The position numbers and the translations under genes were made by a program. A stretch of 64,000 nucleotides of DNA, taken from contig CP170459.1 of NCBI GenBank assembly GCA_047947115.1, forward strand, positions 1,504,001 to 1,568,000, given 5' to 3'. Under the pieces are notes generated by a model. It worked only from the letters and a program-made list of their open reading frames with translations. It did no database searches and was not told where the DNA came from. Origin of the DNA: Verrucomicrobiota bacterium (lineage in GTDB: Bacteria > Verrucomicrobiota > Verrucomicrobiia > Limisphaerales > AAA164-E04). Of this stretch, positions 2 through 14,977 are shown piece after piece; position 1 is the first letter of the stretch; each line of letters begins with the position of its first letter.

Positions 2-1531
2 GCTGACGATTCCGGTGAATATACCGTCAAGATCATCGTTCTGGGTCTGTCTGAAACTTCAGAAGCAGCCACGATCTCCGTTCAAGAACCTGCCGCCTTG
101 GTTGCTGGAAACTCTATCGGTATCAACTTCGCCTCCGATGAGCCCGCCGGTAACGGTTCGGCTGTGGACGGCGAAGCGGGTGTGATTGGAACTTCTGTCT
201 GGAACAACTTGGTTGGCGGAAGCGGAGCTTCTGACTTCCTGGTTGCTGACGTGGACGGTTCTGCTGGTTTGACCGGCGTGAAAGTCACCTGGAGCTCTCC
301 CAACACCTGGTCCAGCCAGGGCCGTGGTGAAGAAAACAACAGCGCTCCTGCTGGCAACGACCGTAACCTCATGACCGGTTACATTGACACCAACAGCAAT
401 GATCCAAACCAGGTCATCGTGACCGGACTGCCTTCCGACCTCTCTTACGATGTGGTTGTTTACATGAAGGGTGGCGTTGTTGGCCGTGGTGGTGATTACA
501 CCGTCAAAGGCAGCCTCGCTAATGGCTTGGTTGCTCGATGGAACTTCGACAACGAAGACTTCAGCGATTCTGTGGGTAGCTACGATGGCGAAGGCATGGG
601 AACTGATCCGATTGCATTCGGTGACGGTCCTACCGCTGAGTTCGGAAAAGCTCTGACCTTGGATGGTATCGATCAATTCGTTGAAATCACCAGTGATGGT
701 GGCGACCTCGGTTTCACAGGTGGCAGCATGTCTGTTTCAACCTGGTTCCGCGCAAACGACTTCGATAAGAGCTGGCAAGCCCTGATCGCTGACGGTGAAG
801 GTAACCGCTGGCGTCTCCACCGCCGTGGCGGTGAAGGTGGTTTTGCCTGGGTCGGTGGTAACGGCGGCACCCCAGTGGGTGCCGATGTTTCCATTGGTGA
901 ATGGCATCACGTTGTGGGTGTGGCAGATGCTTCCGGTTTGGAATTCGGCTCTCGCCTCTATCTTGACGGTGAAATCTACGCCACAAACGTCACGCCCGCT
1001 GACTTGGGTAGCAACGACTTCAACGTCATGATCGGTGAAAATCCTGACGCTCGTGGTCGTACCTGGAACGGTGATATCGATGATGTAGCCATGTGGAACC
1101 GTGTTTTGACTCACGACGAAGTCAAAGCACTGGGTGCAGGTCCTCTCCAAACCGGAGGTGTGACCCTGCCTCACTATGATAGCGGCGCCTTCACCGGTAA
1201 CTATGTCCATGGTCGTGATGGTGATTACATCGTATTCAAAGACATCTCTGGAACCAGCTTCGTGCTGGAAGGTCAACCCGTCGAACTCCGCGCTCCAATC
1301 AATGGTATTGATATCTTGATCGGTGGTGGATTCGAACCTCCCGCCGGTGGCGGTGGTGGTGAAGGTGGCATCTCCAGTGTTGCTTTGGCAGACGGAAATG
1401 TGGTCATCGAATACACTGGCACGCTGAAGAGTGCTGACAGTGTGACCGGACCTTACAGTGATGTGGCTGGTGCCAGCTCACCTTACTCTGTGGCTCCTAC
1501 CAAGGCTGCTGAGTTCTACATCGCTGAATAA
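2..1531 (+). CDS. Large secreted/surface protein, 5'-partial: end of an Ig-like domain, a beta-rich domain interrupted by a LamG/ConA-like domain, a Gly linker and a C-terminal tail domain
   Basis: Frame is open from position 2 (ADDSGEYTVKII..., Ig-like). LamG motifs LVARWNFD, MSVSTWF, WHHVVGV, LYLDGE, GDIDDVAMWNRVLT. Tail GTLKSADSVTGPYSDVAGASSPY. Confidence 0.75.
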   Translation, partial: ADDSGEYTVKIIVLGLSETSEAATISVQEPAALVAGNSIGINFASDEPAGNGSAVDGEAGVIGTSVWNNLVGGSGASDFLVADVDGSAGLTGVKVTWSSPNTWSSQGRGEENNSAPAGNDRNLMTGYIDTNSNDPNQVIVTGLPSDLSYDVVVYMKGGVVGRGGDYTVKGSLANGLVARWNFDNEDFSDSVGSYDGEGMGTDPIAFGDGPTAEFGKALTLDGIDQFVEITSDGGDLGFTGGSMSVSTWFRANDFDKSWQALIADGEGNRWRLHRRGGEGGFAWVGGNGGTPVGADVSIGEWHHVVGVADASGLEFGSRLYLDGEIYATNVTPADLGSNDFNVMIGENPDARGRTWNGDIDDVAMWNRVLTHDEVKALGAGPLQTGGVTLPHYDSGAFTGNYVHGRDGDYIVFKDISGTSFVLEGQPVELRAPINGIDILIGGGFEPPAGGGGGEGGISSVALADGNVVIEYTGTLKSADSVTGPYSDVAGASSPYSVAPTKAAEFYIAE

Positions 1532-1563
1532 GCCGACTATTTAACAACGTTAAATCTCAACAC

Positions 1564-1596
1564 GAAAGCCCGCTCCCAGGAGCGGGCTTTCCTTTT
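1564..1596 (+). terminator. Rho-independent terminator
   Basis: GAAAGCCCGCTCC-CA-GGAGCGGGCTTTC followed by CTTTT, just after the stop at 1531. Confidence 0.85.
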
Positions 1597-1597
1597 A

Positions 1598-1801
1598 GGT
1601 AGATCGGACCGTCCCGGTCCGCACCTTGTGGCATCCTTACATAAATAAGCCATCCAAAGGAAAACCCAACCGTATCCGAACCCCAATATCACTGGGAGCG
1701 TTTACCAAGGACGCATGTCATTGAAAACCGCAGGCTTCCCAAAGCGGAAGTTGATTGGAATTCGTATGCCACAAGGGCGCGCCAGGGACGGCACGCTCTC
1801 C
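1598..1801 (+). repeat. GTAG-type REPIN-like element, copy A (about 204 bp)
   Basis: GGTAGA + hairpin CGGACCG-TCC-CGGTCCG + CCTTGTGGC at the left; inverted GCCACAAGG...GGGACGGCACGCTCTCC at the right; internal boxes shared with other copies. Confidence 0.85.
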
Positions 1802-1859
1802 TTTTCCATGTTCCAAACGCTTGGAATTTCCATTCTCTGATAGTAGGGTTCACCTGCAC

Positions 1860-3731
1860 ATGATGAGCTTAAATCGACAGTTTGTTGGGATCTTGTTACT
1901 TGCCTTGATAGGAGCTGAAGGCATGCATGCCGCCTCATTGGTTTCCAAAGACCTTATCAAAAACAAACAACATACCCATTTCCGCGTCTCACCAGACGGT
2001 TCCAAAATTGCTTTGTTGGCACCCCATGAAGGAGCCATGAATATTTGGCATCAGGGAGTTGGGCGTGGTAAACGCACACTCATCACGCGTGAATCCCGAT
2101 CTTTGACCCACTTTTTATGGCAATATGATAATGAACATCTCCTTTATCTCCAGGATCAGGATGGCGATCAGCAGCACCATCTTTATCAGGTGGATATAAA
2201 CGGATTCAATACGCGCGACCTGACGCCCTATAGAGGTATTCAGGCACTTGTGGTATCCATGTTGCCTTTGGTGCCGGACCAGATCCTTGTTTCCATGAAC
2301 CTCAACAGCCGGCAGCGGCACGATGTTTTTCGGATCAACTTGGACACCGGCGCGATTGAATCGGACACGATCAATCCAGGATATGTGATTCAATGGGCAG
2401 CTGATGCCGATTTGCAGACAAGGGCAGGAGTGACACTGTCCCCGGGAGGAGATTACGAGATTCTCATCAAGAACCTCGCCAATGGTGAGTGGACTCCCAA
2501 GGTGACGATTCCTGCGGGTCGTGCCATTCCGGGTTTGATCGGATTTTCTCCGGATGGTTCTGTTCTGTGGTATTTGGGAGATGACGAAACCGGGAGCATC
2601 AGGCAATGGGCGTTAAATCTTCAAACAGGCGAAACGGCATCCACTCCTGAAGGAAAAGTGGGTGATGTTGTCGACGTGTTTCGAGATCCTGTCTTGGGGG
2701 TGCCGGAGGGTGTGGCGCTCCGTAATCCCATGAAATCCTGGCGTATGTTTCATGGTGGATATGAAAGTATCATCGAGTTTCTGCGTTTTGAAAAAGGAGA
2801 TCTGTTCTTTCCGAGTCGAAGCCTTCAGAAAAAGGAATGGATCGTAGGATACACCGATCCTCAGATGTCGACTACCTATCAGGTCTATGTTCTGGGAGAT
2901 CGACACAAGGTCATCCTGATGGGAATGGAGCGGCCTAATCTACGCAACGGCAATTTTTCCGCCACCCAACCGGTGTTGATTCCCGGACCTGATGGACAAA
3001 AAATCCGAGCCACATTGAATCGTCCGATCCTGAAAAAGGAAGAACCTGTGCCGACGGTGATTCGGGTCGTGGATGGTGCCATGGATCAACCAACCTTCCA
3101 ATTCGATGAAGAAGCTCAGTGGTTGGCTTACAAAGAAATGGCAGTATTGACGATTTACCCGCCACGCGGTGTGGCTTCGAAAGAGGCAGTGACTGCGCTT
3201 GCTGATGATCATTGGGCCACAGGTTTGAAAGACGACATTCTGGTTGCCAGAAATTGGGCGATTGCAGAAGGACATGCCAAAGATGATCAGATTTATCTCA
3301 AAGGGACTGGTTTGGGTGCTTATGCCGCTCTCTCTGCCGGGGTGAAGCAACCTGATGCTTTCGCGGGTTTGGTTTTGGTGAATGGTGTAACAGATGTTCC
3401 CTCATTTATGAAAGAGTTGCCGACCTATGAACAATCTATCGCGTCCAAGCTGGCCGGATGGTTCACCGGTGACACATCCGGGCAGAAAGCGTGGGTGGAA
3501 CCATCACCGTTGGACCATCTAAATGACCTGGATTCACCTGTTTTGCTAGTGCACGGAGCCAATAATCCTTGGATTCGCAAGGATCAGGCGGGGCGTTTAA
3601 GATCCAAGCTTCTCAACCTTCAGAAGCCGGTGGAAACCCTCTTGATCGAAGGCGAAGGTCACCAGATCATTCAGGAGAACAACGTGATTCGCTACTACGA
3701 GGCCCTGGAAAAATTTCTAAGTGCCAGGTAG
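1860..3731 (+). CDS. S9/prolyl-oligopeptidase-family protein (beta-propeller + alpha/beta hydrolase), probably catalytically inactive
   Basis: Signal-peptide-like N-terminus from ATG 1860, SPDG propeller repeats, LLVHGANN and EGEGH motifs. The nucleophile elbow reads GTGLG instead of GxSxG. Confidence 0.8.
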   Translation: MMSLNRQFVGILLLALIGAEGMHAASLVSKDLIKNKQHTHFRVSPDGSKIALLAPHEGAMNIWHQGVGRGKRTLITRESRSLTHFLWQYDNEHLLYLQDQDGDQQHHLYQVDINGFNTRDLTPYRGIQALVVSMLPLVPDQILVSMNLNSRQRHDVFRINLDTGAIESDTINPGYVIQWAADADLQTRAGVTLSPGGDYEILIKNLANGEWTPKVTIPAGRAIPGLIGFSPDGSVLWYLGDDETGSIRQWALNLQTGETASTPEGKVGDVVDVFRDPVLGVPEGVALRNPMKSWRMFHGGYESIIEFLRFEKGDLFFPSRSLQKKEWIVGYTDPQMSTTYQVYVLGDRHKVILMGMERPNLRNGNFSATQPVLIPGPDGQKIRATLNRPILKKEEPVPTVIRVVDGAMDQPTFQFDEEAQWLAYKEMAVLTIYPPRGVASKEAVTALADDHWATGLKDDILVARNWAIAEGHAKDDQIYLKGTGLGAYAALSAGVKQPDAFAGLVLVNGVTDVPSFMKELPTYEQSIASKLAGWFTGDTSGQKAWVEPSPLDHLNDLDSPVLLVHGANNPWIRKDQAGRLRSKLLNLQKPVETLLIEGEGHQIIQENNVIRYYEALEKFLSAR

Positions 3732-3932
3732 AACGGATCGTCCCCGATCCGCACCTTGTGGAATCCTTGCTCAAAAATGGTATCCAACGGAAACTCTGAT
3801 GTAGTTGAACGCCACAATCTCCATGCGCATTCGGGAGGAATACAGGCTATTGAAAACGGAGGGCTTCCCAAAACGGCCGATGATTGGAATTCGAACGCCA
3901 CTAGGGACGCGCCGGGGACGGCACGATCTACC
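3727..3932 (+). repeat. GTAG-type REPIN-like element, copy B (206 bp)
   Basis: GGTAGAA-CGGATCG-TCCC-CGATCCG-CACCTTGTGG ... GCCACTAGGG...CACGATCTACC. Confidence 0.9.
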
Positions 3933-3946
3933 TGAGGTGGCCTGCA

Positions 3947-4030
3947 GGTAGTGCTGACCGTCCCGGTCCGCTCCTTGTGGTAATCTTATTCAAAACTCCC
4001 ATCCAAAGGAAACCCTTGGAGTAGTCAAAC
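3947..4030 (+). repeat. GTAG-type element, copy C (left half only, runs into the RAYT 3' end)
   Basis: GGTAGTGCTGACCGTCCCGGTCCGCTCCTTGTGG...CATCCAAAGGAAACCC; no right end seen. Confidence 0.75.
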
Positions 4031-4582
4031 ATCCACCACCTCTTCAGTGTGGCGTATCACATATGGCTATAGCTCATTTTTTGCGCACAGTCCGGCACGA
4101 ACTGGATTATTGAGTGTATAAGAGCACTTTTCAACATACTCATTGAGATTCCTGATTCGATGGTCAAAAAAATCCCGCTGCCACTGAATGCCAAAGGCTC
4201 GCGCTGTGTATGATTTCCAGTTTGTGACTGGCTTTCTCAAACCGATATCCACGGGCACAGAAAGCATGGCGTGCAGATGATCCGGCATTAACAGCATGAG
4301 GCGGCAGGTCCATTTGCCGATTTGATGGTAGTAGAAAGCTGATTTCAACAGGGACCACGCTACTAAAGGGTGGCATAGCTGATTGGTGCCCTTAGGTGTG
4401 GTGCAAATGGTGACAAAAAAGCATGGAGAACCGGAAACCCACTGAGGGATATAATGGGCGAGACGGCCTTTGCGTAATTGAGGATTTTTAAATTGGCATT
4501 TCAAAGGCTTTGGCCCTTCGAACTCAATGAAAGCAATTTGTTTTGTGAAGCCAGTAAAACACCTTAATTGAAAGATAGCCAT
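4025..4582 (-). mobile_element. REP-associated tyrosine transposase (RAYT/TnpA-REP, Y1 HUH superfamily); ORF stops at TAG 4067, probably a premature stop
   Basis: FFVTICT, LMPDHLH (HUH), WKSYTA, WQRDFFDHRIR and YTLNNPVRAGL (catalytic Tyr) motifs; flanked by GTAG hairpin repeats. Start codon uncertain. Confidence 0.9.
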
Positions 4583-4591
4583 ACTTTTTTG

Positions 4592-4817
4592 GGTAGATTC
4601 CCGACGAGTCGGTATCTGGGTACGCACCTTGTGGCGTTCTTATTCAAAATTGCCATCCAATGGAACCTCCTGAGGTAATCGAACGCCAAAACCCATCTGT
4701 TTGCGTTTGCATAGAATACAGATCATCGAGAACCACAGGCTTCCCAAAACGGAAGATGATTGGAATTCAAGCGCCACAAGGGGCGCGCCGGGGATACCGC
4801 AGTCGTGGGATTCTGCC
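4592..4817 (+). repeat. GTAG-type REPIN-like element, copy D (226 bp) with alternative terminal hairpins
   Basis: GGTAGATTCCCGACGAGTCGG...CACCTTGTGGCG; internal boxes present; right end GCCACAAGGGGCGCGCCGGGGATACCGCAGTCGTGGGATTCTGCC. Confidence 0.85.
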
Positions 4818-4838
4818 TGATGTGGGCGTTCGTCATTA

Positions 4839-6392
4839 TTAAGGTTTGATCGGGTATCGCTTTACTTTCACATCATTGAGTTGTTCAGGCCCAGGATTGC
4901 TTCGGCCTTTTGTGATCAAGTGTTCCAGCAATTGGCTTAGTTCCGTAACCTTGTCCGGTTGGGTGGCGGCAAGATTGTTCGATTCGGCAATGTCTTTCGA
5001 GAGATCGTATAGCTGTATCGTTGTTTCTGCTTCGCCCTTTGTCCAGCCGCCGGAACCCTTGTCCAGAACCAGTTTCCAATTGCCTCGACGAATGCTGGGA
5101 ATGCCGCGGATGGAGCAACTCACCGAGTGTTCCCGAATAGGTTTGTTCTCACCTTTCAATAGGGGTATCAGGCTGAAACTGTCTTCCCCTTCATTTTCTG
5201 CCAACGGCGTTTCGAGCACATCCGACAGGGTGGCGATCCAATCGGCTTGATGGATCAATTGATGATTTGTGGATCCGGGCGCCACAACCTTGGGCCAACG
5301 CACGATGAAGGGAACACGGTGTCCGCCTTCCCATGCGTCGGATTTGTATCCACGCAGTGGTCCGCTCGGGAAGTGGCCTTTGGCTTCCAATTGGTCAACA
5401 TCGATATAGGGCGCACAGCCATTGTCACTGGTAAACAGGACAAGTGTTTGCTCGGTCTGGCCGCTTTCTTCGAGCGCGTTGAGGATGTTCCCCACAACTG
5501 CGTCGGTTTCCATCACCATGTCGGCATAAAGATTGAGTCCGCTTTGGCCCTTCCATTCATCATTGACGGACAGCGGGGTGTGGGGAGAAGTGAGTGGGAT
5601 TTAGAGCAAGAAAGGTTCTGGAGTGTTCCCTTCGCTTTTGATGAATGCCGAGGCTCGTTCGGCGAGTGCCGGCAGGATGGGTTCCAGCGTCCAGTCTTTG
5701 AGCGCCGGGCCTTGTTTGCTGGCCTGGTTACGCGCCAGTTGTGGGGCTCCAAGAAACTCCGATGGGATGCCCACGGTGCGATCCTGATCGATAAAACAAT
5801 AGGGTGGCCAGTTGGGAACATCCGTTCCAAAATAGAGATCGAATCCTCGTGTGATTGGACCGCCTTCAATGGGTTGAGAGAAGATGGATGACCAAAGCTT
5901 GCGGTGATCCTCGGTTGCCTGCGCGTCGTTGGGGTGGTTGGCACGCATGGCTGGCAAAGCATCGTTTGGAATGGGCCAGTCCCATCCTAAGTGCCACTTC
6001 CCGATGCACGCTGTGTTGTATCCGCTCTTTTTGGCAAGTCCGGCAATAGTCAAGCGATTCGGCGCGATCAGTGTTTTGCCCCAGAGTCCTACAATTCCAG
6101 ATTGCAAGCTGGTGCGCCAGTGGTAGCGTCCGGTCAATAAAGTGTAGCGCGAAGGTGAGCAAACCCCGGAGGAGGAATGCGCATCGGTGAACCGCATCCC
6201 TTCACGCGCCAGGCGGTCAATGTTGGGGGTCGGAATGAGGCCTCGATCCGGGTTGTAACATTGTACATCGCCGTAGCCCAGGTCGTCGGCATAGATGATC
6301 AAAATGTTGGGTGTGTCAGCCGAGGCCGGGGATAGGCCTGCCCAAAGCGAGCTCATCAGGATGGAACAAAAGGATGCGAAGCAGTGTTTCAT
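4839..6392 (-). pseudogene. Arylsulfatase (formylglycine-dependent, Cys-type) split by one in-frame TAA at 5601-5603
   Basis: PNILIIYADDLGYGD, CSPSRYTLLTGR, GKWHLG. The reading continues in frame through the stop (EPFLL*IPLTSPHTP) into FTSDNG, GYKSDAWEGGHRVPFIVRWP and QLYDLSKDIAE. Confidence 0.85.
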
Positions 6393-6471: not shown

Positions 6472-6854
6472 GGAGGGTCGGGTTCCACCCCGAACCCAAA
6501 CTTCCTCCTCGAAACCCTCCTGAGCAAGAGACGTGGAACGCGGGAAGCTGTTGGCAATTGTATGCCTGTGGCGTTTCCATTGCAGCCTGGTGGCGGGTTC
6601 GAGCGTTGCGAGGTCTGAAATGGGAGTCCCGACTCGTCGGGAGAGTTTGCCCCTCCATTTTGTAAATACGGAGGGTCGGGTTCCACCCCGAACCCAAACT
6701 TCTTCCTCGAAACCTTCCTGAGCAAGAGACGTGCAACGCGGGAAGCCGTTGGCAATTGCATGCCTTTGGCGTTTCCATTGCAGCTTGGTGGCGGGTTCGA
6801 GTGTCGCGAGGTCTGAAGTGGGAGTCCCGACTCGTCGGGAGAGTTTGCTCTTCC
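6472..6854. repeat. Tandem pair of 185-bp GGAG-tagged REPIN-like units (6472-6656 and 6670-6854; period 198 bp)
   Basis: Near-identical units that start GGAGGGTCGGGTTCCACCCCGAACCC, contain the hairpin TCCCGAC-TC-GTCGGGA, and end CCCTCC / CTCTTCC. Confidence 0.9.
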
Positions 6855-10670: not shown

Positions 10671-10889
10671 GGTAGAGCTGATCGTCCCGATCCGCTCCTT
10701 GTGGTATCCTTATCCTAAACTGCGAACCAAAGGAAAACCCCAACGTATCCAAAGGACTAAAAATCCAATGCACACGTCCGAGCAGAGTTTCGGTTATTGA
10801 AAAATTGCAGGCTTCCCGAAACGGAAGTTGATCGGATATTGGACCCCACAGGGACGCGCCAGGGATCCACGCAGTCGCGGGATTCTACC
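10671..10889 (+). repeat. GTAG-type REPIN-like element, copy E (219 bp), hybrid ends
   Basis: Left GGTAGAGCTGATCGTCCCGATCCGCTCCTTGTGG (A/B/C type); right GGGATCCACGCAGTCGCGGGATTCTACC (D type); both internal boxes present. Confidence 0.85.
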
Positions 10890-14634: not shown

Positions 14635-14752
14635 GGCCGGGATTGCGACAAGCTGAAAACGATAACGAGCTGTCTTTGGGGGATTTTGTTTGGGAACCGT
14701 AGATTGTGCAGCTTGTCGCAGATTTTTTAAGGGTCGGTTTTTCTGTGCGTCA

Positions 14753-14821
14753 GGGTTTCCTTTGGGTGGTGGGTTTGGTTAGCGGTGCCATAAGGGGCGC
14801 ATCGAGACGATCCGATCTACC
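14753..14821 (-). repeat. GTAG-type element, copy F (half element, inverted)
   Basis: Reverse complement reads GGTAGATCGGATCGTCTCGATGCGCCCCTTATGGC...CCCAAAGGAAACCC; 69-bp near-duplicate of 14909-14977. Confidence 0.8.
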
Positions 14822-14835
14822 ATGGGTGAGCTGCA

Positions 14836-14977
14836 GGTAGATCGGATCGTCCCTGATCCGTGCCTTGTGGTTTTCGAAGGGCAATCAACTTCCGTTTGGG
14901 AAGCCATTGGGTTTCCTTTGGGTGGTGGGTTTGGTTAGGGGTGCCACAAGGGGCGCATCGAGACGATACGGTCTACC
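14836..14977 (-). repeat. GTAG-type element, copy G (142 bp, internally deleted, inverted)
   Basis: Both GGTAG/CTACC ends present; both internal boxes present on the minus strand but nearly abutting. Confidence 0.85.

What the first reader, a model, noticed from the sequence alone, without database searches (positions are those of the whole stretch)
1654..1763. Two conserved internal boxes enclose a length-conserved divergent core of 55-59 nt
Seen: box 1 is CCAA(A/C/T)GGAA and box 2 is about ATTGAAAA.CGCAGGCTTCCCAAA.CGGAAGTTGATTGGAATTC, which includes a CTTCC/GGAAG stem. The interval between them is 56 nt in A (1664-1719), 55 in B (3794-3848), 58 in D (4667-4724) and 59 in E (10737-10795). 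It is much more divergent than the boxes and is almost entirely deleted in G, which keeps both boxes and both ends. Inference: uneven conservation suggests selection on the boxes as protein-binding sites or an RNA/ssDNA structure. Speculatively, it is a scaffold-plus-variable-segment RNA.
Basis: partly seen in the sequence, partly recalled or inferred. Interest (0 to 1): 0.7.

Follow-up and report, generated by a model that had tools for sequence, protein, structure and literature searches.

The report
Twin boxes inside a REPIN spacer
The two boxes are one short motif in opposite orientations inside a known type of small bacterial mobile repeat (a REPIN, 143 matching loci in this genome); they are kept as sequence rather than as base pairs, so they are likely landing sites for a still unidentified DNA-binding protein and probably not the scaffold of a guide RNA.

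Summary
1599-1801 is one copy of a ~204-nt GTAG-type REPIN family (143 loci, 43 near full length) beside a RAYT transposase gene at 4025-4504(-). The two boxes are one motif, GG(A/G)AA(A/G)CC, inverted, about 60 nt from each end and 35-36 nt from a near-invariant CCT. Recruited by REP sequence alone, 81 of 143 ends carry it there (background 3%). Across 63 copies from two species, pairwise identity is 0.78 and 0.86 in the boxes and 0.38 in mid-core. Only the REP hairpins covary; box-box pairing and the CTTCC/GGAAG stem do not, and 14 of 34 end-paired elements keep one box alone. A second REPIN family with different REPs carries the same box pair around a shorter core. Cores are inherited subfamilies, not captured spacers. 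Elements are oriented by replication direction (33 of 38 loci), not by transcription. Best reading: a REPIN whose spacer carries a site for an unidentified DNA-binding protein, like the IHF site in E. coli BIME-1. The scaffold-plus-variable RNA idea is unsupported; transcription was not measured.

The parts
1599..1801 (+). REPIN family 1, copy A (full, two boxes)
1599..1622 (+). Left REP (type a): GTAG plus bulged hairpin
   Evidence: covariation z 8.4
1624..1631 (+). CCTTGTGG; its CCT is nearly invariant and lies 35 nt before box 1; fits the CC|T cut consensus of E. coli TnpA-REP (inferred, not tested)
   Evidence: PMC3333891 passages
1654..1667 (+). Box 1 (L form): CCAAA-GGAAAACCC
1668..1732 (+). 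Core: length-constrained, heritable, weakly conserved; TTCGAA-like submotif near each box
1733..1747 (-). Box 2 (R form): the same motif inverted; reads GGCTTCCC-AAAGCGG on the + strand
1769..1776 (-). Inverted CCTTGTGG, 36 nt from box 2
1777..1801 (-). Right REP (type b), inverted; end tag decayed in this copy
   Evidence: covariation z 5.6
1564..1591 (+). Intrinsic-terminator-like hairpin directly before copy A
3728..3931 (+). Family 1 copy B (full)
3948..4024 (+). Family 1 copy C: left arm with box 1, abutting the 3' end of the RAYT gene
4025..4504 (-). RAYT / TnpA-REP gene (HUH and Y motifs; probable TTG start). In-frame TAG at 4067-4069 in this assembly; contigs of 4 of 4 environmental DNA runs read TGG there
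4593..4816 (+). Family 1 copy D (full, variant REPs), 5' of the RAYT gene
6472..6656 (-). REPIN family 2 (GGAG-tagged REPs) with the same inverted box pair around a short core
6670..6854 (-). REPIN family 2, tandem second copy
10672..10888 (+). Family 1 copy E (full)
14736..14820 (-). Family 1 copy F: left arm with box 1 only
14837..14976 (-). Family 1 copy G: 140 nt, both boxes, core almost absent

Best explanation
The feature is the spacer of a REPIN (two inverted GTAG-tagged REP hairpins beside a RAYT transposase gene), and its two boxes are one motif in inverted orientation that likely serves as a sequence-read site for an unidentified host DNA-binding protein. Shown: element identity, mirror position of the boxes, fixed 35-36 nt spacing from the CCT behind each REP, conservation in sequence without covariation, sharing with a second REP family, retention at orthologous loci, and polarity with replication. 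Inferred: the RAYT copies the element as single-stranded DNA exposed on the lagging-strand template, cutting at CT sites as E. coli TnpA-REP does; a protein binds each box at a fixed distance from the REP; the core is a low-constraint spacer whose length matters more than its sequence. Not shown: which protein binds, and whether binding serves element spread or the host.
For: REPIN: inverted REP ends with covarying hairpins; 143 loci, 142 outside called genes, convergent gene ends enriched (52 of 108 loci against 212 of 1385 intergenic gaps); adjacent RAYT (NF047646 64 bits; homologues of 47-49% identity pass the cut-off and are flanked by their own REP doublets). Boxes: 81 of 143 and, with a looser pattern, 141 of 195 REP-recruited ends; CCT-to-box spacing exactly 35 in 56 of 68 left arms, 35-37 in 62 of 68 right arms. 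No pairing needed: no covariation, two fixed mismatches between the boxes (A.C in 53 and C.C in 46 of 63), single-box elements (14 of 34 end-paired elements, read by eye). Shared by family 2: box at exactly 68 nt in 43 of 74 left ends; family 2 also occurs beside a RAYT only 33% identical to the window's (G007). Kept in place: in 14 syntenic pairs with G001 (ANI about 83%) box 2 is 193 of 210 identical, box 1 153 of 188, mid-core 284 of 406, four-fold sites 0.60. No close RAYT was found in G001, which favours host-level constraint. Precedent: the BIME-1 linker frequently carries an IHF site (PMC3333891, passages).
Against: No binding partner is identified. The box is not enriched in non-REPIN intergenic DNA (27 observed against 18-21 expected; 83 against 73-84), as a common host regulator site might be. 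The family 2 dyad pattern occurs in multiple copies only in G000 of 401 phylum genomes (7 others have one match each, and those show no REP ends). A third REPIN family here lacks the box. Box spacing variants show no consistent helical phasing. Aligned non-REPIN non-coding DNA is 0.82 identical between G000 and G001 (probably inflated by missed coding DNA), so box 1 (0.81) does not exceed it; only box 2 does. The boxes vary little, so the covariation test has limited power there. G001 is 88% complete, so a RAYT may be unassembled. The window RAYT scores below the NCBIfam cut-off (64 of 80).
Confidence: 0.5

Rival explanations
1. The boxes are read by the RAYT machinery itself, as a second contact or a preferred CT cut and strand-exchange site, so only box-bearing copies are duplicated.
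For: Fixed distance from the REP and CCT; motif confined to REPINs; box 2 contains CT and TnpA-REP cuts linker CT sites at a distance (PMC3333891 passages); fusions occur at the boxes (G; a family 2/family 1 chimera near 5.9656 Mb).
Against: Shared by families beside RAYTs only 33% identical; not seen by eye or by profile in REP doublets beside closer RAYT homologues; conserved at old orthologous loci and in G001, where no close RAYT was found; bases beyond the CT are as conserved as the CT.
Confidence: 0.22
2. The boxes have no function of their own: they are relics of an old inverted duplication, kept alike by recent copying from master elements or by conversion between copies.
For: All four arms of families 1 and 2 are recognisably homologous; lineage signal is weak outside the core, as expected with shuffling.
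Against: Neutral copying gives even divergence, not 0.86 against 0.38 within one element; 8-15 nt is short for homologous conversion (own knowledge); spacing is exact; box 2 far exceeds neutral identity at orthologous loci.
Confidence: 0.13
3. [quoted passage not shown]
For: Mirror positions and partial complementarity; copy A folds better than shuffles (z -4.35); compensatory changes are described in SBW25 REPIN spacers (PMC3116915 passages).
Against: Copy B does not (z -1.03), and neither predicted fold pairs box 1 with box 2; no covariation for box-box, box 2 stem, linkers, core or a local left-arm hairpin; fixed mismatches; single-box elements.
Confidence: 0.1
4. The element is transcribed as a scaffold RNA whose variable core acts as a guide or specificity segment.
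For: Constant core length; six RNA runs hold 39-64% of the sampled words of window 1200-5200, which spans genes and says nothing about the element itself.
Against: Cores are related by descent (clusters of 12 and 8 copies at dispersed loci in both species) and are 0.70 identical at orthologous loci, above four-fold sites; no phage or plasmid match for copy A; no strand preference relative to genes (11 against 6); copy A follows a terminator and shows no sigma-70-like site; no Rfam hit; no CsrA gene found.
Confidence: 0.05

Closest known systems
REPIN-RAYT systems of Pseudomonas fluorescens SBW25 (PMC3116915, passages; PMC3337134, parts 1-2 of 3 of the text)
   Same: Two inverted REPs, discrete spacer length classes, extragenic, tandem arrays, flanking a single-copy RAYT; several families per genome.
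   Different: Longer (about 204 nt); the spacer shows no compensatory pairing, whereas SBW25 spacers form hairpins; it carries a sequence-conserved inverted motif at fixed distance; left and right REPs differ, which makes the element polar.
E. coli BIME-1 with its IHF site, and TnpA-REP (PMC3333891, PMC8266576; passages)
   Same: GTAG-tagged heterodimer of two REP types with a long linker holding a conserved internal site; CCT next to each REP like the CC|T cut consensus.
   Different: Two inverted boxes instead of one site; the linker is variable around them; the box does not resemble the IHF consensus as I recall it; no binding protein known; the same box is used by a second REP family.
GTAG-family head-to-head heterodimers (PMC3733652; section 14 and passages), including Opitutus terrae (Verrucomicrobia)
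   Same: GTAG termini outside, heterodimeric REPs, spacers of similar length but different sequence.
   Different: Spacers there are mostly 20-100 bp (1-2 bp in O. terrae); no internal inverted box pair or replication polarity is described in what I read.
IS200/IS605 single-strand transposons IS608 and ISDra2 (PMC6006769, passages)
   Same: Related HUH/Y1 enzyme; insertion into the lagging-strand template would give the orientation bias seen here.
   Different: Non-autonomous and multi-copy here; the transposase is single-copy and lies outside the element.

Membership tests
REPIN | Two REPs in inverted orientation with tetranucleotide tags outside | tested here: met
REPIN | REPs form hairpins | tested here: met
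   covariation z 8.4 and 5.6
REPIN | Many copies, extragenic | tested here: met
   143 loci, 1 mostly inside a called ORF
REPIN | Copies flank a single-copy RAYT | tested here: met
   B and C on one side, D on the other; one close RAYT in the genome; score 64 of 80 cut-off, homologues pass
REPIN | Conserved ends, variable spacer with length classes | tested here: met
   classes near 140 and 204 nt; identities
REPIN | Whole spacer organised as a hairpin with compensatory changes (SBW25 type) | tested here: inconclusive
   The ends can pair in predicted folds; the interior shows no covariation. It differs from SBW25 here; E. coli BIME linkers are described as variable in the passages read
REPIN | Mobilised by the RAYT | not testable with these tools
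   Indirect only: 3 of 23 syntenic G001 copies have no G000 counterpart
E. coli BIME-1 (IHF-binding) | IHF binds the linker | not testable with these tools
   Two HU/IHF-family genes exist; the box does not look like the recalled IHF consensus (by eye only)
CRISPR-like or guide-RNA array | Unique acquired spacers matching foreign DNA | tested here: not met
   Cores are homologous subfamilies; no phage or plasmid match for copy A; four cores match only themselves or a paralogue in the genome
CsrA-binding small RNA | Host encodes CsrA | tested here: not met
   PF02599 not found in G000, 96% complete
Structured non-coding RNA | Covarying interior helices or an Rfam match | tested here: not met
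Structured non-coding RNA | Discrete transcript | not tested
   No RNA coverage across the element was obtained

The most novel reading that the evidence does not exclude
These REPINs carry a dedicated internal cis-element, a phased inverted site for a host protein that two unrelated REP/RAYT families have both kept, and they are laid down with replication-fork polarity. The box would then be the handle by which the host uses, or licenses the spread of, its REPINs, making the open question of why hosts keep REPIN-RAYT systems testable with one pull-down.
Probability: 0.3. Interest if true: 0.65.

Novelty: new variant of a known kind. Interest (0 to 1): 0.42.

Why it matters
REPIN spacers are usually described as variable filler, and why bacteria keep REPINs for millions of years is unresolved. 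Here the spacer holds a defined, fixed-position motif that survives a change of REP family and a species split, which gives a concrete bait for finding a partner protein. The polar design also exposes a strong orientation bias with replication, an expectation of single-strand transposition that symmetric REPINs cannot show. The system seems confined to a few species of one uncultured genus, and no function is shown.

Tried and rejected
Rfam: no match. CsrA reading of the ANGGA-like box: no CsrA gene. Sigma-70 promoter: none near copy A; sigma-54, ECF and LexA-type motifs were compared by eye from memory and did not fit. KOPS-like role: the box 8-mers show no genome-wide strand skew (0.42-0.54). 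Local left-arm hairpin: no covariation (z -0.6 and 0.3); a scan of all 4-bp helices gave at best z 3.4 among many tests. Periodicity of conservation: a 6-nt peak was not significant over the whole interior (p 0.25), only in the left half (p 0.019, uncorrected), and not in family 2. Helical phasing of box distance: variants 19, 35, 49, 67, 69, 74, 92, 96, 115 against the main 82 show no consistent pattern. Recombination breakpoints at the boxes: inconclusive, since the linkers carry little lineage signal even internally. Wider distribution: family 1 DNA matched G001 and one 28-nt piece in G026 among 40 relatives; the family 2 pattern was in clear excess over control only in G000, G001 and G007 of 41; 3 viral-contig and 2 metagenome hits show no REP context. 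RNA runs hold the region but no coverage across the element was obtained. The end-pairing script paired only 68 of 195 ends, so the single-box count is a minimum. Literature searches for REP orientation by replichore, for spacer motifs and for Verrucomicrobia RAYTs listed no paper describing either feature; the library lacks most subscription journals and I opened no supplements.

Full report
What it is. The region 1654-1763 is the interior of a dispersed repeat. Each full copy runs from GTAG plus a bulged hairpin to an inverted hairpin plus CTAC; copy A spans 1599-1801. Only 1 of 143 lies mostly inside a called gene, and 52 of 108 loci are between convergent genes, against 212 of 1385 intergenic gaps of 200 nt or more (my own gene calls). 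Between copies C and D, at 4025-4504 on the minus strand, is a REP-associated tyrosine transposase with HUH and Y motifs. It scores 64 bits on NF047646 (cut-off 80), while homologues of 47-49% identity pass and are flanked by their own REP doublets. Its in-frame TAG at 4067-4069 reads TGG in contigs of all four environmental DNA runs laid, so the gene is probably intact in the population. The element is a REPIN. A genus relative is titled an uncultured Verrucomicrobiota bacterium.

Checking the observation. The four intervals are 56, 55, 58 and 59 nt as stated. To avoid circular recruitment I found ends by REP sequence alone: 81 of 143 have GG(A/G)AA 57-66 nt inside the GTAG, against a 3.2% background and 0-5 in neighbouring windows; a weight-matrix search with a looser box pattern gave 141 of 195. 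I aligned 78 distinct full copies from G000 and from the fetched part of G001, reduced them to 70 below 90% identity, and dropped 7 symmetric or badly deleted ones. In the remaining 63, mean pairwise identity is 0.78 for box 1, 0.86 for the core of box 2, 0.90 and 0.80 for the CCTTGTGG motifs, 0.59 and 0.54 for the outer linkers and 0.38 for mid-core.

One motif, inverted. Read inward from either end, each arm is GTAG-REP, CCTTGTGG, about 27 nt, then GG(A/G)AA(A/G)CC, then after about 7 nt a weaker TTCGAA. The left form is preceded by CCAAA and the right form by CCGTTTT. CCT-to-box spacing is exactly 35 nt in 56 of 68 left arms and 35-37 in 62 of 68 right arms; the box-to-box distance is 81-85 nt in 52 of 68 (11 of 79 copies could not be placed).

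Sequence, not structure. Comparing complementarity within a copy to that with partners from other copies, both REP hairpins covary (z 8.4 and 5.6). Box 1 against box 2 does not (z 0.8) and has two fixed mismatches. The CTTCC/GGAAG stem does not (z 0.3): its 5' arm is 90-97% conserved, its 3' arm 67-87%, with no compensation. Linkers and core do not (z -1.3, -1.7). A candidate local hairpin also fails. The boxes vary little, which limits power, but 14 of 34 end-paired elements (115-153 nt) carry one box with no partner (read by eye).

Shared with a second family. The repeat at 6472-6854 belongs to a family with GGAG-tagged REPs (101 hits). Its arms carry the same CCT and box; the boxes are 37-38 nt apart in 49 of 60 placed copies and flank a single TTCGAA, forming a dyad. 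Recruited by REP alone, 43 of 74 left ends have the box at exactly 68 nt. Again only the REP hairpin covaries (z 6.6; boxes -0.2). This family also flanks a RAYT in G007 that is 33% identical to the window's. A third family beside the second RAYT of G000 has no box, nor do doublets beside closer RAYT homologues in other families. The box is not enriched in non-REPIN intergenic DNA.

Kept in place. G001 (ANI about 83%) has the family at syntenic sites. Of 37 full G001 copies examined, 23 had two-sided synteny and 3 of these had no G000 counterpart. For 14 G000 copies paired with their best syntenic partner (B and D share one partner, so one pair is not truly orthologous), box 2 is 0.92 identical, CCTTGTGG 0.94, REPs 0.88, box 1 0.81, mid-core 0.70 and four-fold sites 0.60 (box 2 against core p 7e-11, box 1 p 0.004). 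Aligned non-REPIN non-coding DNA is 0.82, so only box 2 clearly exceeds it. G001 has one REPIN where G000 has B, C, the RAYT and D, and no close RAYT was found in that 88% complete genome.

The core. Cores average 0.44 identity against 0.25 expected from composition, and form subfamilies of 12 and 8 copies spread over both genomes. They are inherited, not acquired, and change no faster than neutral sites. Copy A has no match in phages or plasmids. G is 140 nt; its left arm duplicates the adjacent half F, so it probably arose by local duplication and fusion at the boxes.

Polarity. Full elements read left to right on the leading-strand sequence at 33 of 38 loci (p 4e-6; 28 of 31 without aberrant copies). 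Relative to co-oriented flanking genes the split is 11 to 6, and all 5 elements between lagging-strand genes follow the replichore. The bias tracks REP type (type a 45 of 51, type b 64 of 94 the other way), not the left-form box (37 to 37). Family 2 shows none (36 of 62). Replichores come from GC skew (1.11 and 3.99 Mb) and agree with 83-87% skew of GGGNAGGG (the KOPS label is recalled), but dnaA lies at 5.94 Mb, so the origin is inferred.

Mechanism. Most likely the RAYT copies the element as single-stranded DNA at the fork, as IS608 and ISDra2 use the lagging-strand template (PMC6006769, passages), cutting at CT sites as TnpA-REP does (PMC3333891 and PMC8266576, passages). That step is inferred. 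The boxes behave as a protein site: exact sequence, exact distance, no pairing, usable singly, shared across REP families. I put 0.5 on a host DNA-binding protein, as with IHF in BIME-1, 0.22 on the RAYT itself, 0.13 on a functionless relic, 0.10 on structure and 0.05 on a guide-like RNA. Whether the element is transcribed on its own remains untested.

Literature seen. PMC3337134: parts 1-2 of 3 of the text. PMC3116915: passages. PMC3733652: passages and section 14. PMC3333891, PMC8266576, PMC6006769 and bioRxiv 10.1101/2021.07.10.451892: passages; the last calls the spacer highly variable. REP325/naRNA4 papers: listing only. Searches listed nothing on such internal boxes or on REP orientation by replichore; no supplements were opened. 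Verdict: a real feature and a new variant of a known kind.

Noticed in passing
G000 whole genome; window copies A, B, D, E: Family 1 REPINs are oriented by replichore (33 of 38 loci), tracking REP type and not gene direction. One REP type of a third family also lies mostly on the leading-strand sequence (22 of 27 distinct ends, tandem copies not collapsed).
   Followed up: yes
window 4067-4069 (-): The RAYT has an in-frame TAG where homologues have Trp; contigs of 4 of 4 environmental DNA runs read TGG, so it is strain-specific or an assembly error.
   Followed up: yes
L148 (G001:C2, about 99.1-99.4 kb): G001 has a single REPIN where G000 has B, C, the RAYT and D: RAYT loss or gain by recombination between flanking copies.
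   Followed up: partly
G000:C1:5965487-5965663: Chimera of a family 2 left arm and a family 1 right arm joined between the boxes.
   Followed up: partly
G000:C1:5390989-5391372 (L031): A second RAYT (59 bits on NF047646) flanked by a third REPIN family of about 100 nt without the box but with TTCG-rich spacers.
   Followed up: partly
G000:C1:3837348-3839578 and 4867738-4869094: Long tandem arrays of family 2 REPINs (12 and 7 units), BIME-like amplification.
   Followed up: no
G000:C1:1341656-1353840: Cluster of 11 single REPs of family 1 type with no CCTTGTGG or box behind them.
   Followed up: no
window 4593-4612 and 10866-10888; also family 2 copies: A short palindromic insert (TCCCGAC...GTCGGGA type) replaces or interrupts the REP hairpin in several copies of both families, possibly another small mobile unit.
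   Followed up: no
L018:1936-2808: The tandem family 2 array in G007 (192-nt unit) keeps one reading frame open for 290 codons; probably incidental.
   Followed up: no
G000:C1:5937499 versus 1110607: dnaA lies about 1.25 Mb from the GC-skew minimum.
   Followed up: no
G000: The most abundant 16-mers (40 copies) come from a CRISPR-like repeat elsewhere in the genome.
   Followed up: no
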